From sequence record MN850614.1: a stretch of DNA of 64,000 bases, one strand, 5' to 3'. Position 1 is the first letter of the stretch. Every line of letters begins with the position of its first letter. Made by a program: the position numbers and the translations under genes. The notes under the pieces are model-generated. The model was not told the DNA's origin. It searched no databases and saw only the letters and a program-made list of their open reading frames with translations. The DNA comes from Escherichia phage adrianh. Below are positions 37,787-39,851 of the stretch, one piece after another.

Positions 37787-37868
37787 ACGGGGCGTATCTC
37801 AGCGGTCTTCTAAACCGCCGTTAACCGAGTAAGTGGAGTATGCGGGTTCGAGTCCTGCCGCCTCGACC
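37787..37868 (+). tRNA. tRNA-Arg-like (anticodon UCU), atypical D region
   Basis: Anticodon arm GCGGT CTTCTAA ACCGC, T-arm GCGGGTTCGAGTCCTGC, acceptor CGGGGCG/CGCCTCG; D-arm not canonical. Confidence 0.4.
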
Positions 37869-38011
37869 AATTTAGTTAGCAGATTGCTTAGACGACCTTA
37901 TCGGGTCTCCGTGTAAGGAGGTGGTCTGTATCTCATGTTTTCCAGAACATGTAAATAATCTGAGAAGGGGCTTTACAGTGTTGCGAAAATACGGTAAGCT
38001 TCGAATTATAG

Positions 38012-38094
38012 TGTGGGACGATGTTAAGACTCTAAGGCATGAGCAACGGCCTCCAAAACCGTTTCAAAGTGGTTCAACTCCTCCGTCCCATGCC
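38012..38094 (+). tRNA. tRNA-Trp-like (anticodon CCA), atypical
   Basis: Acceptor GTGGGAC/GTCCCAT, anticodon loop CTCCAAA, T-loop GGTTCAACTCC; extended D region. Confidence 0.35.
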
Positions 38095-38107
38095 AAAGTC
38101 TTATTAG

Positions 38108-38195
38108 GGGTAGGTAGCGGCTAATGGTAGCCAAACTGTCTTGAAAACAGTTGCCACTGTAGAGATACGGTGAGGGTTCGACTCCTTTACTTACC
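38108..38195 (+). tRNA. tRNA-Ser (anticodon UGA), long variable arm
   Basis: Acceptor GGTAGGT/ACTTACC, anticodon arm ACTGT CTTGAAA ACAGT, long variable arm, T-loop GGTTCGACTCC; CCA not encoded. Confidence 0.55.
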
Positions 38196-38354
38196 GCCTA
38201 ATAAGATTTTAAAGCCAAGCTTCATTCGGATGTTGCTTTGGTATCCCTCGTGTATTGTCGTACACACTAATAAAGCACCTAGTAGGTGTCACGGAGAAGA
38301 GATAATATCAAGCTCTCCAAAGGTTCTAGTCACCGGATTAAACAAGACTATGCA

Positions 38355-38378
38355 AAGACCTTTTTAGGTCTTTTTAGA
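38355..38378 (+). terminator. Rho-independent terminator within tRNA region
   Basis: AGACC TTTTT AGGTCT followed by TTTTT. Confidence 0.5.
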
Positions 38379-38453
38379 GGGCTTCTAAGGTTATTACAGC
38401 TTGTTGTGGAACCTTGTTGCTTAGGTTCTTAGAAGTTCTCTAAAAAGATTTAA

Positions 38454-38531
38454 TGGGAGATTGACGGTAATTGGTAAACCTATCTCGCTTAGAACGAGAT
38501 GTTTGAGGGTTCGAATCCCTTGTCTCCTACC
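38454..38531 (+). tRNA. tRNA with UAG anticodon (Leu by anticodon), short variable arm
   Basis: Acceptor GGGAGAT/GTCTCCT, anticodon arm ATCTCG CTTAGAA CGAGAT, T-arm GAGGGTTCGAATCCCTT. Confidence 0.45.
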
Positions 38532-38538
38532 AAATTAA

Positions 38539-38614
38539 TGCAGGTGTAGCAAAATGGTTATGCGGCTGACTCTTAATCAGTAAGACGATGGGTTCAATTC
38601 CCTCCACCTGTACC
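38539..38614 (+). tRNA. tRNA-Lys (anticodon CUU)
   Basis: Acceptor GCAGGTG/CACCTGT, anticodon loop CTCTTAA, T-loop GGTTCAATTCC; paralogue of UUU tRNA. Confidence 0.55.
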
Positions 38615-38620
38615 AAACAA

Positions 38621-38696
38621 TGGGGTCATAGTTTATATGGTTAAAATTCGAGTTTTGCAAACTTGGGAACTGAGTTCAATTCTCAGTGACTCCACC
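38621..38696 (+). tRNA. tRNA-Ala (anticodon UGC)
   Basis: Acceptor GGGGTCA/TGACTCC, anticodon arm CGAGT TTTGCAA ACTTG, T-arm CTGAGTTCAATTCTCAG. Confidence 0.6.
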
Positions 38697-38702
38697 AATT
38701 AG

Positions 38703-38777
38703 TGCATCCATAGTTTAAACGGGAAAATTACAGTCTTCCAAACTGAGGTTGAGGGTTCGATTCCCTCTGGATGCTCC
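38703..38777 (+). tRNA. tRNA-Gly (anticodon UCC)
   Basis: Acceptor GCATCCA/TGGATGC, anticodon loop CTTCCAA, T-arm GAGGGTTCGATTCCCTC. Confidence 0.65.
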
Positions 38778-38783
38778 AAACAA

Positions 38784-38860
38784 TGCTGCTTTCGTATAAT
38801 TGGCTATTACACATCCCTTGTAAGGATGGAAATGCAGGTTCGAGTCCTGTGAGCAGCACC
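38784..38860 (+). tRNA. tRNA-Thr (anticodon UGU)
   Basis: Acceptor GCTGCTT/GAGCAGC, anticodon arm CATCC CTTGTAA GGATG, T-arm GCAGGTTCGAGTCCTGT. Confidence 0.7.
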
Positions 38861-38955
38861 AATTCAGAGGTCAAGTGAAAGACCGCTGGTGTCAACTGAA
38901 GACCGTAACAAATTCCACGGAGTTGAGTTAGCGGCACAACTTCAGACCTCTTTCA

Positions 38956-39031
38956 CACTCGCTTAGTTTATATGGTAAAACATCACCCTTACAAGATGAA
39001 GAAAAAGGTTCAAGCCCTTTAGTGAGTACCA
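38956..39031 (+). tRNA. tRNA-Val (anticodon UAC)
   Basis: Acceptor ACTCGCT/AGTGAGT, D-arm GTTT..AAAC, anticodon loop CTTACAA, T-loop GGTTCAAGCC. Confidence 0.55.
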
Positions 39032-39032
39032 T

Positions 39033-39110
39033 GTTCCAGTATCCCAATTGGCAGAGGATGCAAGCTCAAACCTTGTACTAGTGACGGTTCGAATCCGTCT
39101 TGGAACACCA
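39033..39110 (+). tRNA. tRNA with CAA anticodon (Leu by anticodon), short variable arm
   Basis: Acceptor GTTCCAG/TTGGAAC, anticodon arm GCAAG CTCAAAC CTTGT, T-arm GACGGTTCGAATCCGTC. Confidence 0.5.
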
Positions 39111-39128
39111 ATTTAAAGAGGCTATTTA

Positions 39129-39686
39129 ATGAGATATTTGAAGTATGCTTCATGGATTTTCTTAGCTTTACTAGACCCAATTGCAGCAACCATAGCAGTT
39201 ATCTTAGCACCTTTCGTAGTTCCATTCTACAGTGAGAAGAAAGGACATCTACCTTTTGGATTCAGATGGATGGAGACCTATGACAACCCGATTGATGGTG
39301 ATAAAGGCCACGTTGAGAGATGGGCTAATATTAGATGGATTGGTAAACTAGGTGTCTACATGCAAAGAGTTGGATGGCTCTGGAGAAACAAAGCTTATAA
39401 CTTCTCTTACCATGTATTAGGAAGAGATGTAAAAGATGTTACTAAGTGGAAAGGTAATATCAACGTAAGTTCTAACCCTGAAGATAATCAGACTGGTTAT
39501 CTCCTAATGTGGAACAGGAATGCTTGGGGATTATTCGCTTTTATCCCATCAATTAAAATCTTTGGTAAACAATTTTACTGGAGAATTTATATTGGATGGA
39601 AACTAAAAAGTGTTGTCCCAGAAGAAAGAGCATTCTCAAGGGAAAGAGTTATGTTGGCATTCTTTATTCATCCACTGAGAAAGTAA
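39129..39686 (+). CDS. Hypothetical Trp-rich membrane protein embedded in tRNA array
   Basis: 185 aa; AAAGAGG RBS; hydrophobic N-terminal segment; flanked by tRNA genes. Confidence 0.45.
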   Translation: MRYLKYASWIFLALLDPIAATIAVILAPFVVPFYSEKKGHLPFGFRWMETYDNPIDGDKGHVERWANIRWIGKLGVYMQRVGWLWRNKAYNFSYHVLGRDVKDVTKWKGNINVSSNPEDNQTGYLLMWNRNAWGLFAFIPSIKIFGKQFYWRIYIGWKLKSVVPEERAFSRERVMLAFFIHPLRK

Positions 39687-39694
39687 AGATTTAA

Positions 39695-39770
39695 AGGGGA
39701 TTAGTTTACAAGGTTAAAACCTCGGTCTTTGAAATCGAAGAAGTTGGTTCAATTCCAACATCCCCCGCCA
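39695..39770 (+). tRNA. tRNA-Gln (anticodon UUG)
   Basis: Acceptor AGGGGAT/ATCCCCC with 1:72 mismatch, anticodon arm TCGGT CTTTGAA ATCGA, T-arm GTTGGTTCAATTCCAAC. Confidence 0.6.
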
Positions 39771-39772
39771 AT

Positions 39773-39851
39773 GCTCCATTACTCCAATTGGCAGAGAGGC
39801 CAGACTTAAAATCTGTGTTATGTATCGGTTCGAATCCGATATGGAGTACCA
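39773..39851 (+). tRNA. tRNA with UAA anticodon (Leu by anticodon)
   Basis: Acceptor GCTCCAT/ATGGAGT, anticodon loop CTTAAAA, 7 nt variable region, T-arm ATCGGTTCGAATCCGAT. Confidence 0.5.

What the first reader, a model, noticed from the sequence alone, without database searches (positions are those of the whole stretch)
37787..39851. Several tRNAs with non-canonical architecture, including Leu-anticodon tRNAs with short variable arms
The three tRNAs with Leu anticodons (UAG at 38454, CAA at 39033, UAA at 39773) fold with short (4-7 nt) variable regions instead of the long variable arm that bacterial tRNA-Leu uses as an identity element. The Arg-like tRNA at 37787 lacks a normal D-arm and the Trp-like tRNA at 38012 has an extended D region. 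These could be mis-folded by hand, decayed pseudo-tRNAs, or tRNAs with altered identity (for example resistance to host anticodon nucleases or re-assigned charging).
Basis: seen in the sequence. Interest (0 to 1): 0.5.

Follow-up and report, generated by a model that had tools for sequence, protein, structure and literature searches.

The report
Phage tRNAs with stripped-down architectures
This Felix-O1-type phage carries three leucine tRNAs without the usual long extra arm, an arginine tRNA without a D arm and a tryptophan tRNA with an inserted stretch; all are conserved, structurally selected RNAs, and the leucine and arginine types recur across many unrelated phages.

Summary
The window is a Felixounavirus with a tRNA array at 36148-41046.

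**Leucine tRNAs.** ARAGORN, Rfam and a custom covariance model fold all three (UAG, CAA, UAA) with 5-7 nt variable loops. The array's tRNA-Tyr and tRNA-Ser keep long arms. The three keep U8, A14, A15-U48, G18G19, A20a and A73, the published E. coli LeuRS identity set, which does not include the long arm.

**Wider distribution.** The same type I tRNA-Leu is widespread in viral contigs: 91 distinct sequences pair in 98% of cells, and all 20 pairs covary. It occurs in 38/120 viral loci against 3/120 cellular loci.

**Arg-like RNA.** It is not decayed. It belongs to a family of at least 31 variants in at least five phage lineages, with a covarying acceptor, anticodon and T stem, an invariant UCU loop and an invariant core replacing the D arm. 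Relatives carry a canonical tRNA-Arg(UCU) at the identical site. AGA/AGG make up 52% of the window's Arg codons.

**Trp-like RNA.** It is lineage-restricted and kept by compensatory changes.

**Best reading.** These are functional tRNAs charged by host enzymes, with re-wired architectures. Charging and any defence-evasion role are untested, and I found no prior description.

The parts
38455..38532 (+). tRNA-Leu(UAG), type I. Acceptor has G1.U72. D stem is A10-U25, a bulged C, then G-C, G-C. D loop is UAAUUGGUAAA, variable loop UGUUU (5 nt), discriminator A73, CCA encoded.
   Evidence: ARAGORN. Rfam tRNA 44.5 bits. Type I Leu model R1 63.1 bits, with alignment. Compensatory U-A to C-G change in the anticodon stem in phage Si3.
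39033..39110 (+). tRNA-Leu(CAA), type I. 3-bp D stem UCC/GGA, 11-nt D loop CAAUUGGCAGA, variable loop ACUAGU (6 nt), A73, CCA encoded.
   Evidence: ARAGORN. Rfam 43.6 bits. R1 68.5 bits. Identical or nearly identical in about 250 Felixounavirus records, and a homologue in Erwinia phage phiEa21-4.
39773..39851 (+). tRNA-Leu(UAA), type I. 3-bp D stem CUC/GAG, D loop CAAUUGGCAGA, variable loop GUUAUGU (7 nt), C27.U43 mismatch, G1.U72, A73, CCA encoded.
   Evidence: ARAGORN. Rfam 47.5 bits. R1 71.7 bits, the best hit in the window.
37788..37869 (+). D-arm-less tRNA-Arg(UCU)-like RNA. Layout: 7-bp acceptor; connector UAUCUCA; anticodon arm GCGGU-CUUCUAA-ACCGC; 23-nt core CGUUAACCGAGUAAGUGGAGUAU; canonical T arm; A73; CCA.
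   Evidence: Rfam 31.7 bits with the D arm deleted. 31 distinct family members from 53 loci: 98.7% paired, 14 of 17 pairs with compensatory change. A canonical tRNA-Arg(UCU) lies at the identical flanks in L333.
38013..38095 (+). Non-canonical tRNA-Trp(CCA)-like RNA. Acceptor GUGGGAC/GUCCCAU with G1.U72. Connector of 9-10 nt (GAUGUUAAGA). D hairpin CUC-UAAGGCAU-GAG. Anticodon stem AACGG/CCGUU with C31.A39. Variable loop of 4-5 nt. Weak T stem, U.U in this copy. G73, CCA.
   Evidence: Rfam shows only tRNA-Sec at 21.3 bits. MFE fold. Mooglevirus homologues show compensatory changes in the D hairpin (CUC/GAG to CAC/GUG), the anticodon stem (4 pairs in Michonne) and the T stem (G-C to U-A in Moogle). 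Ten variants in 26 loci. The D-region motif occurs only in contigs of about 85-90 kb.
36148..41046 (+). The tRNA array that holds these genes: 24 ARAGORN tRNAs plus the Arg-like and Trp-like RNAs. Internal controls with normal long arms: tRNA-Tyr 36707-36794, tRNA-Ser 38109-38198 and tRNA-Ser 40874-40966.
   Evidence: Relatives are annotated the same way.

Best explanation
These are working phage tRNAs with re-wired architectures. They are not mis-folds, not pseudogenes and not re-assigned adaptors.

(1) Leucine tRNAs. The three genes are genuine tRNA-Leu from which the class II arm has been reduced to a 5-7 nt loop. They keep every element that E. coli LeuRS is reported to read: A73, U8-A14, the A15-U48 Levitt pair, G18G19 at the tRNA-Leu-specific position, and A20a. 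The host LeuRS therefore most likely charges them with leucine, and they read UUA, UUG and CUA, which make up 51% of the phage's Leu codons. Only Leu lost the arm because LeuRS does not need it, whereas SerRS and bacterial TyrRS do (established knowledge). That fits the array's Ser and Tyr tRNAs staying class II.

(2) Arg-like RNA. It is a member of a mobile, conserved family of D-arm-less tRNA-Arg(UCU). It sits in the slot that a canonical tRNA-Arg(UCU) occupies in sister phages. It most likely supplies AGA/AGG decoding, which covers 52% of the phage's Arg codons; these codons are rare in E. coli (established knowledge). The invariant core, which contains AAnUGGA, probably substitutes for the D loop, supplying G18G19 for the elbow and A20 for ArgRS.

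(3) Trp-like RNA. It is a lineage-specific tRNA-Trp with an 8-nt insertion in the 8/9 connector.

Shown here: the structures, their conservation and covariation, the retained identity nucleotides, the allelic replacement, and the codon demand. Inferred: expression, charging, use on the ribosome, and the selective driver. I guess the driver is relaxed constraint, possibly combined with escape from host factors that recognise the tRNA body.
For: Leucine tRNAs:
- Folds agree across tools.
- 91 distinct viral type I Leu sequences: 98.1% of cells paired, 20/20 pairs with double changes, covariation 1.06 against 0.24 shuffled and at most 0.19 slid.
- U8, U48 and A73 are 91/91 although the search pattern did not impose them.
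- The same three nucleotides are 100% in 104 bacterial class II tRNA-Leu and 98-99% in 100 viral type I tRNA-Leu.
- The identity set and the dispensability of the arm are stated in PMC9976931.
- In the type I loci, 72 of 73 tRNA-Ser and 27 of 29 tRNA-Tyr stay long.
- The type I form is conserved in the sister genus Kolesnikvirus. It also occurs in Mydovirus KpS8 and in the straboviral phage POP12.
- Si3 carries a compensatory change.

Arg-like RNA:
- Family covariation.
- Homologues in Vequintavirinae, jumbo phages and Straboviridae.
- Exact cassette replacement by a canonical tRNA-Arg(UCU).
- Mutual exclusion with the canonical gene within Ounavirinae loci.
- The window has no other tRNA-Arg.
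- AGA 42% plus AGG 10% of Arg codons.

Trp-like RNA:
- Compensatory changes in relatives.

Expression of the array:
- The REP phages, about 97% identical over 37700-40200, infect recoded E. coli by expressing their tRNA-Ser(UGA) (PMC13596443).
Against: - No expression, modification or charging data for any of the five RNAs were available.
- Fan et al. 2019 (PMC6614811) report that EcLeuRS could not charge the type I tRNA-Leu(CAA) of Streptomyces coelicolor, and that the EcLeuRS leucine-specific domain favours a large variable loop. That tRNA ends its loop in C48, not U48.
- RefSeq marks the Si3 Leu(UAG) homologue as a pseudo tRNA-OTHER.
- The Arg-like core is invariant, so its fold cannot be inferred from covariation. 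Two non-Ounavirinae loci (L359, L378) carry both the Arg-like RNA and a canonical tRNA-Arg(UCU).
- A D-arm-less tRNA working on a bacterial ribosome with EF-Tu has no precedent that I know of.
- The window's own Trp-like copy has a U.U in the T stem where most relatives have G.U, and the REP8 copy has a G.A in its acceptor stem.
- Viral and cellular frequencies come from the first 120 loci of each scan and from one D-loop pattern. They are not a census.
Confidence: 0.65

Rival explanations
1. Defence evasion at the level of the tRNA body. Losing the variable arm (Leu), losing the D arm (Arg) or altering the D region (Trp) would remove features that host or competitor tRNA-targeting nucleases or toxins recognise. 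The phage copies would then survive when host tRNAs are destroyed. This is compatible with the best explanation and concerns the selective driver.
For: - Type I Leu is enriched 18-fold in viral loci over cellular loci and sits in tRNA arrays with a median of 7 tRNAs per locus.
- The Arg-like cassette has spread across unrelated phages of enterobacteria and replaces a canonical gene.
- Phage tRNAs are known to escape anticodon nucleases through anticodon-loop changes (PMC10264068; PMC13596443).
- Eukaryotic Schlafen nucleases select type II tRNAs (titles and abstracts listed).
Against: - I found no bacterial nuclease shown to recognise the tRNA-Leu variable arm or the tRNA-Arg D arm.
- The anticodon loops are ordinary: CUUCUAA is the same in the canonical allele.
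- Ser and Tyr tRNAs of the same phages keep their arms.
- 33 viral loci carry both short and long tRNA-Leu.
Confidence: 0.3
2. Neutral streamlining. The arm is dispensable for LeuRS, so deletions drift to fixation in compact phage genomes. The odd Arg and Trp genes would be tolerated, slightly defective variants.
For: - The arm is dispensable in vitro.
- Variable-loop length varies from 5 to 7 nt in this phage.
- Mildly disruptive changes occur in the Trp-like RNA.
- Recombination between Leu paralogues made a chimera in Si3.
Against: - Type I Leu has a sharply defined, conserved form: 74 nt, a 5-nt loop ending in U, found in 91 diverse sequences.
- The Arg-like core is invariant over lineages whose stems have diverged completely. 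That pattern indicates strong selection on the core, not tolerance.
Confidence: 0.25
3. The Arg-like RNA, and perhaps the Trp-like RNA, is not an adaptor. It would be a tRNA mimic: a decoy for a tRNA-binding host factor or nuclease, or a partner of the phage's Ro60-like protein in the way tRNA-like Y RNAs are.
For: - A DUF2828/DUF7788 'RNA-binding protein' gene lies just upstream of the array.
- Y-RNA-like modules, one with a YrlA-type T arm, capped acceptor and D arm domain, lie inside the array.
- Homologues of that protein lie near five Arg-like loci outside the Felixounavirus group.
- T5 carries annotated 'tRNA-like stable RNAs' among its tRNAs.
Against: - The Arg-like RNA has free tRNA ends, a 7-bp acceptor stem, an A or G discriminator in 28 of 31 variants, encoded CCA in many members, and an invariant 7-nt anticodon loop with UCU.
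- It swaps with a real tRNA-Arg(UCU) at the same site.
- The phage depends heavily on AGA.
Confidence: 0.15
4. Changed identity. The short-arm 'Leu' tRNAs would be charged with another amino acid, recoding UUA, UUG and CUA in phage proteins.
For: - Lack of the class II arm makes isotype models fail, giving tRNA-OTHER or pseudo labels in some records.
- Yeast mitochondria use a non-Leu tRNA(UAG) (PMC7609411).
Against: - A73, U8, A14, A15-U48, G18G19 and A20a are exactly those of bacterial tRNA-Leu.
- These codons make up half of all Leu codons in ordinary phage genes. The host's own tRNA-Leu would compete for them.
Confidence: 0.03

Closest known systems
Engineered E. coli tRNA-Leu lacking the variable arm (Asahara 1993/1998; Larkin 2002, as summarised in PMC9976931)
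   Same: No long arm, yet A73, A15-U48, G18G19 and A20a are kept. Those studies found such molecules still leucylated by EcLeuRS.
   Different: Those were laboratory constructs. Here the same design is a natural, conserved gene class in phages.
Streptomyces coelicolor type I tRNA-Leu(CAA) (Fan et al. 2019, PMC6614811)
   Same: A natural bacterial-system tRNA-Leu with a 5-nt variable loop that coexists with type II tRNA-Leu and a single LeuRS.
   Different: Its loop ends in C48, A73 is not an identity element there, and EcLeuRS does not charge it. The phage class has U48 and A73 invariant and an E. coli-type D loop.
Animal mitochondrial tRNA-Leu(UUR)
   Same: Type I tRNA-Leu whose identity rests on A73 and A14.
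   Different: Organellar, with its own LeuRS and a floppy structure. The phage tRNAs have canonical D/T-loop elbow nucleotides.
Mitochondrial D-arm-less tRNAs, e.g. nematode mt-tRNA-Ser(UCU) (PMC7609411)
   Same: The D arm is replaced by a short connector.
   Different: Those have short or absent T arms and short variable regions, and they work with adapted mitochondrial factors. The phage Arg-like RNA has a canonical T arm, a 23-nt invariant insert after the anticodon stem, and must use bacterial machinery.
Phage tRNAs that escape host tRNases by anticodon-loop substitutions (van den Berg 2023, PMC10264068; T5 tRNA-Lys versus PARIS, cited in PMC13596443)
   Same: Phage-encoded copies that differ from host tRNAs in ways that may matter in conflict.
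   Different: Those changes are point substitutions in the anticodon loop. Here the loops are ordinary and whole arms differ. That paper mentions neither variable arms nor D arms.
T5 'tRNA-like stable RNAs' (RNA1, RNA2, RNA3) annotated in NC_005859
   Same: Non-canonical tRNA-like genes interspersed in a phage tRNA cluster.
   Different: No sequence relation was tested. T5's tRNA-Leu is a normal 85-nt class II tRNA.

Membership tests
tRNA (Rfam RF00005) | Covariance-model score at or above the gathering score (29 bits) over the full model | tested here: met
   Leu UAG 44.5, Leu CAA 43.6, Leu UAA 47.5 and Arg-like 31.7 bits, all covering model positions 1-71. The Trp-like RNA does NOT meet it: it has only a tRNA-Sec match at 21.3 bits against a gathering score of 47.
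Bacterial class II tRNA-Leu | Long variable arm (more than 10 nt, stem-loop) | tested here: not met
   The variable loops are 5, 6 and 7 nt. Gene lengths are 78-79 nt with CCA.
Bacterial class II tRNA-Leu | A73, U8-A14, A15-U48, G18G19 after a 3-bp D stem, A20a (the E. coli LeuRS identity set, PMC9976931) | tested here: met
   All are present in the three window genes (alignments). U8, U48 and A73 are 100% in 104 bacterial class II tRNA-Leu and 98-99% in viral type I tRNA-Leu.
Type I tRNA-Leu (mitochondrial, Streptomyces) | Leu anticodon with a short (about 5 nt) variable loop in an otherwise complete cloverleaf | tested here: met
   Family-level structure was confirmed on 91 sequences.
Type I tRNA-Leu (mitochondrial, Streptomyces) | Leucylation by the resident LeuRS | not testable with these tools
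   Indirect evidence only. The identity nucleotides are kept. The counter-example is EcLeuRS failing on the Streptomyces type I tRNA.
Phage type I tRNA-Leu model R1 (built here) | Scores above all other tRNAs of the same genome with the 74-position model | tested here: met
   71.7, 68.5 and 63.1 bits for the three Leu genes. The next best window tRNA scores 56.6. The margin is modest because the general tRNA shape is shared.
D-arm-less mitochondrial-type tRNA | D arm replaced by a short connector | tested here: met
   7 nt (UAUCUCA) lie between the acceptor and anticodon stems. The Rfam alignment deletes the D arm.
D-arm-less mitochondrial-type tRNA | Reduced T arm or loss of the canonical elbow, and a short variable region | tested here: not met
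   Canonical T arm with GUUCGAnUC, and a 23-nt invariant segment after the anticodon stem.
tRNA pseudogene | No selection on structure: substitutions break pairs as often as they keep them, indels occur, occurrence is patchy | tested here: not met
   Leu family 98.1% paired and Arg-like family 98.7% paired, both with strong covariation. The Trp-like has 6 compensated pairs against 2 single disruptive changes among 10 variants.
tRNA-Arg (E. coli ArgRS substrate) | C35, U/G36 and A20 in the D loop (established identity set, from memory) | tested here: inconclusive
   C35 and U36 are invariant. There is no D loop. The invariant UGGAG could present a G18-G19-A20 mimic, but with no variation the fold cannot be tested.
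tRNA-Trp (E. coli TrpRS substrate) | CCA anticodon, G73, A1-U72 (established identity set, from memory) | tested here: met
   CCA and G73 are in all 10 variants. Position 1-72 is A-U in most and G.U in the window's clade.

The most novel reading that the evidence does not exclude
Phages of enterobacteria use a D-arm-less elongator tRNA-Arg(UCU) on bacterial ribosomes, and many phages use arm-less tRNA-Leu. These body-level redesigns would be selected because they make phage tRNAs invisible to host or rival factors that recognise tRNA arms. That would be a second, structural layer of the tRNA arms race, beyond anticodon-loop point changes.
Probability: 0.25. Interest if true: 0.85.

Novelty: new variant of a known kind. 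Interest (0 to 1): 0.68.

Why it matters
Reviews state that tRNA-Leu carries a long arm everywhere except animal mitochondria (PMC9976931). A review of natural non-canonical tRNAs does not mention phages at all (PMC7609411).

Here a well-defined arm-less tRNA-Leu class appears in roughly a third of the sampled viral tRNA-Leu loci. A D-arm-less tRNA-Arg-like family is shared by several phage families that infect E. coli, Klebsiella, Salmonella and Pectobacterium.

If these RNAs are charged and used, three things follow:
- They are natural experiments showing what bacterial synthetases, EF-Tu and ribosomes really require.
- They give compact tRNA scaffolds for genetic-code engineering. LeuRS ignores the anticodon, and phage tRNAs are already used for swapped codes.
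- They explain why annotation pipelines label such genes 'tRNA-OTHER' or 'pseudo'.

The systems are tractable: Felix O1, the REP phages, rV5-like phages and E. coli K-12.

Tried and rejected
- **T5 as a second example.** Its tRNA-Leu(UAG) is a normal 85-nt class II tRNA.
- **Experimental proof from the swapped-code work.** The phage tRNA-Leu used there comes from OSYSP, a T5-like Tequintavirus. It is therefore probably class II; I did not locate the gene. The BLAST did not help. The Nature paper and its preprint are not held.
- **Literature on phage type I tRNA-Leu or D-arm-less phage tRNAs.** Ten searches found none. Absence from this library is not proof of novelty.
- **Rfam tmRNA and permuted-tmRNA hits near 37479-37786 and 37842-38021.** They score 10-29 bits, below threshold, and borrow tRNA T arms. 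I treated them as spurious.
- **Folding the Arg-like core.** RNAalifold proposes a 3-bp hairpin (Y38-G49, C39-G48, G40.U47). Only one side of one pair varies. Alternatives in which CUC(11-13) pairs with one of two GAG triplets are equally untestable.
- **The Trp-like D-region motif outside the lineage.** It occurs only in contigs of about 85-90 kb, all of Felixounavirus size.
- **A fuzzy-regex scan.** It timed out and was replaced by blastn.

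
Full report
**What the window is.** Megablast of 37700-40200 finds 262 phage records. Almost all are Felixounavirus (Ounavirinae) phages of Escherichia, Salmonella, Shigella and Citrobacter, at 90-98% identity. The finding lies inside a tRNA array at 36148-41046 on the + strand. ARAGORN tRNAs there and Rfam.

**Checking the three leucine tRNAs.**
- ARAGORN calls Leu(UAG) 38455-38532, Leu(CAA) 39033-39110 and Leu(UAA) 39773-39851. They are 78, 78 and 79 nt including CCA, drawn with short variable regions.
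- Rfam's tRNA model aligns them end to end at 44.5, 43.6 and 47.5 bits.
- There is no room for a class II arm. The array's tRNA-Tyr (88 nt) and both tRNA-Ser (90 and 93 nt) have one.
- The hand fold was therefore right.
- Leu(CAA) and Leu(UAA) have a 3-bp D stem and an 11-nt D loop, CAAUUGGCAGA. Leu(UAG) has the same design with one bulged C in the D stem.
- All three have U8, A14, A15, G18G19, A20a, a U as the last variable-loop nucleotide (U48) and A73.

**What LeuRS needs.** The review by Giege and Eriani (PMC9976931) summarises the evidence. In E. coli tRNA-Leu, A73 is crucial, and the anticodon and long variable arm are not. SELEX found A15-U48, G18G19 and A20a essential. The phage genes keep exactly the published identity set.

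**Conservation in relatives.**
- The three genes are present, nearly unchanged, throughout Felixounavirus.
- Phage Si3 has a compensatory U-A to C-G change in the Leu(UAG) anticodon stem.
- Erwinia phage phiEa21-4, in the sister genus Kolesnikvirus, has three tRNA-Leu (CAA, AAG, UAA) of 77-78 nt.
- Phage T5 has an ordinary 85-nt tRNA-Leu.

**A much wider class.**
- I scanned IMG/VR with a pattern tying the tRNA-Leu D loop, a NAR anticodon and the T loop at short spacing.
- ARAGORN found 144 tRNA-Leu of 74-80 nt, 132 of them distinct, in 93 loci (counts include the four reference phage loci L001-L004 and the window). The most common anticodons were UAG, CAA and UAA.
- Ninety-one distinct 74-nt sequences align almost without gaps (A1).
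- On the cloverleaf with a 3-bp D stem and a 5-nt variable loop, 98.1% of cells pair. All 20 pairs show double changes. The covariation score is 1.06, against 0.24 for shuffles and at most 0.19 for slid partners.
- U8, U48 and A73 are invariant (91/91) although the pattern did not require them.
- A covariance model built from A1 ranks the three window genes first in the window, at 71.7, 68.5 and 63.1 bits. The next best tRNA scores 56.6.

**Enrichment in viruses.**
- I repeated the pattern with a free spacer (15-45 nt). In IMG/VR it gave 120 loci, 38 of which carry the short type.
- In one-genome-per-species GTDB contigs it gave 120 loci, and only 3 hold real short-type tRNA-Leu. Two are actinobacterial (Gordonia, Herbiconiux). 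The third is a Planctomycetota MAG contig with a Leu-Leu-Leu-Tyr array.
- Fisher OR is 18, p = 5e-10.
- Short-type loci are tRNA arrays, with a median of 7 tRNAs. In them 72/73 tRNA-Ser and 27/29 tRNA-Tyr remain long.
- Bacterial class II tRNA-Leu caught by the same pattern have U8, U48 and A73 at 100% (n = 104). Viral type I tRNA-Leu have them at 98-99% (n = 100). The viral class is tRNA-Leu minus the arm.
- Caveats: the samples are the first 120 loci of each scan, are restricted to one D-loop motif, and are not phylogenetically independent.

**Prior knowledge on type I tRNA-Leu.** Fan et al. 2019 (PMC6614811) describe a type I tRNA-Leu(CAA) in Streptomyces coelicolor. They state that almost all bacterial tRNA-Leu are type II. 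They also report that EcLeuRS could not charge that tRNA. Its loop ends in C48, whereas the phage class has U48. This is the main evidence against easy charging, and it keeps the charging step an inference. Ten literature searches found no description of phage type I tRNA-Leu. A 2020 review of natural non-canonical tRNAs never mentions phages.

**The Arg-like RNA, 37788-37869.**
- Rfam aligns it at 31.7 bits with the D arm deleted and 20 extra nucleotides after the anticodon stem. ARAGORN is silent. Other records label it tRNA-OTHER.
- A blastn search showed homologues at 83-90% identity outside Ounavirinae. They occur in rV5-like Vequintavirinae, Mydovirus KpS8, 356-386 kb jumbo phages, Klebsiella phage fENko-Kae01 and the straboviral phage POP12.
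- A scan of IMG/VR with the conserved core gave 46 loci. Together with the cultured phages this gives 31 distinct sequences.
- Their acceptor, anticodon and T stems differ almost completely but pair in 98.7% of cells. Fourteen of 17 pairs carry compensatory changes, and the covariation score is 0.87 against 0.22 for shuffles.
- Invariant parts are the connector UAUCUCA, the anticodon loop CUUCUAA (anticodon UCU) and the 23-nt segment CGUUAAYCGAGUAAnUGGAGUAU. The scan pattern fixed most of these positions. They were, however, already constant in the seven BLAST-derived sequences.
- In VpaE1-like genomes a canonical 77-nt tRNA-Arg(UCU) lies between exactly the same flanking sequences.
- Within Ounavirinae loci the two forms are mutually exclusive. 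Two loci of other lineages have both.
- The window has no other tRNA-Arg. AGA and AGG are 42% and 10% of Arg codons in its long ORFs.
- I therefore read the RNA as the phage's AGA/AGG decoder with a re-wired core. Its fold cannot be settled because the core does not vary.

**The Trp-like RNA, 38013-38095.**
- It has a 7-bp (or 8-bp) acceptor stem and a 9-10 nt connector. A hairpin, CUC-UAAGGCAU-GAG, carries GG. The anticodon arm carries CCA, and the T stem is weak. G73 and CCA follow.
- Its D-region motif occurs only in contigs of Felixounavirus size. Kolesnikvirus has a canonical tRNA-Trp.
- Mooglevirus homologues show compensated changes. The D hairpin changes from CUC/GAG to CAC/GUG. Four anticodon-stem pairs change in Michonne. 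One T-stem pair changes in Moogle.
- Among 10 variants from 26 loci there are two uncompensated changes. One is the G-to-U in the T stem that the window shares with two other loci.
- It is under structural selection, but it is the least secure of the five.

**Mechanism and its status.** Shown: architecture, selection on structure, retention of identity nucleotides, allelic equivalence of the Arg forms, and codon demand. Inferred: expression, processing, charging by host LeuRS, ArgRS and TrpRS, and ribosomal use. Indirect support for expression comes from the REP phages. They are about 97% identical over 37700-40200 and overcome recoded E. coli through their tRNA-Ser(UGA) (PMC13596443). The reason for the redesigns is open. 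Only Leu can lose its arm without losing its synthetase. Whether loss is neutral or helps escape tRNA-directed defences cannot be decided here.

**Side findings.**
- The ORF just upstream of the array (34566-35981) is a DUF2828/DUF7788 protein, annotated 'RNA-binding protein'.
- Four modules between 36314 and 37160 share a bulged AGACC/GGUCU helix whose outer pairs covary among the copies.
- The fourth module contains a T arm, a loop-capped acceptor helix and a D arm, which is the YrlA Y-RNA layout described by Chen et al. 2014. Divergent relatives keep the capped helix by compensatory change.

**Verdict.** The objects are new variants of a known kind (tRNA). Two of them belong to widespread phage families that I could not find described.

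Noticed in passing
window 34566-35981 (+) and 36314-37160 (+): A 471-aa DUF2828 + DUF7788 protein ('RNA-binding protein' in relatives; I recall DUF2828 as Ro60/TROVE-like, not tested) lies just upstream of the tRNA array. Four Y-RNA-like modules follow, at about 36314-36392, 36481-36550, 36936-37015 and 37023-37160. Each is closed by a bulged AGACC/GGUCU helix whose outer 4 bp covary between copies. The fourth holds a circularly permuted tRNA-like domain: T arm, loop-capped acceptor helix ACUCGGC-AGAU-GUCGAGU, then D arm. This is the YrlA layout, and relatives L332 and L373 keep it by compensatory change. The Rfam YrlA model does not hit it.
   Followed up: partly
viral loci L013, L026, L027, L034, L039, L043, L087, L093, L100, L111, L118, L119, L124; also L342, L351, L371, L378, L379: Homologues (24-44% identity) of the DUF2828/DUF7788 protein lie within a few kb of phage tRNA arrays. 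They occur in 13/120 type I Leu loci against 1/82 long-arm-only loci (p = 0.009), and next to several Arg-like RNAs in unrelated phages.
   Followed up: partly
window 37545-37786 (+); L003 4760-4990; L004 2440-2755: A promoter-like TTGACA...TATACT is followed by a conserved non-coding stretch of about 200 nt that ends right at the Arg-like gene. It is shared with Erwinia phage phiEa21-4. There are only sub-threshold tmRNA and permuted-tmRNA hits. It is a candidate phage sRNA or leader.
   Followed up: no
window about 36903-36937, 37749-37779, 39936-39962; L003 about 4955-4985: A hairpin motif recurs in front of tRNA genes (CUUUAAGGGnUUCUuAcGAGAGUCcUUUAAAG). It is conserved in sequence in the sister genus. 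It may be a processing or termination signal.
   Followed up: no
L004 4001-4079 (Salmonella phage Si3): A chimeric tRNA-Leu: the 5' part of Leu(CAA) is fused in the D loop to the 3' part of Leu(UAA). The intervening DUF7338 gene and tRNA-Gln(UUG) are deleted, evidently by recombination between the paralogues. The hybrid acceptor stem has a mismatch and wobble pairs.
   Followed up: partly
alignment A1 (91 viral type I tRNA-Leu); window Leu(UAG) and Leu(UAA): G1.U72 closes the acceptor stem in 38 of 91 type I tRNA-Leu and in two of the window's three.
   Followed up: no
L244 (Gordonia sp.), L288 (Herbiconiux chromosome), L306 (Planctomycetota MAG contig): Type I tRNA-Leu also occur in cellular assemblies. 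Two actinobacteria have single tRNA-Leu(UAA) genes. One MAG contig has a Leu-Leu-Leu-Tyr array that may be viral. Prophage context was not examined.
   Followed up: no
L370 (147-kb IMG/VR contig, Mydovirus-like): Another odd Trp(CCA)-like gene with a long, different D region (…GUAACUUAAUUGCUCCGGGAGCAAGCUGG UCUCCAAA…). Re-modelled tRNA-Trp may not be limited to Felixounavirus.
   Followed up: no
window 37869-38012 versus relatives H91-H94, H101: In several relatives (including JN01, CRP22 and heid) the stretch between the Arg-like and Trp-like genes is about 350 bp longer. In JN01, CRP22 and heid it carries an HNH / endonuclease VII homing-endonuclease gene.
   Followed up: no
window 39129-39686 and 40138-40872 (+): Two protein genes are embedded in the tRNA array: DUF7338 (a 'putative membrane protein' or 'holin' in relatives) and DUF7217. 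Both are of unknown function.
   Followed up: partly
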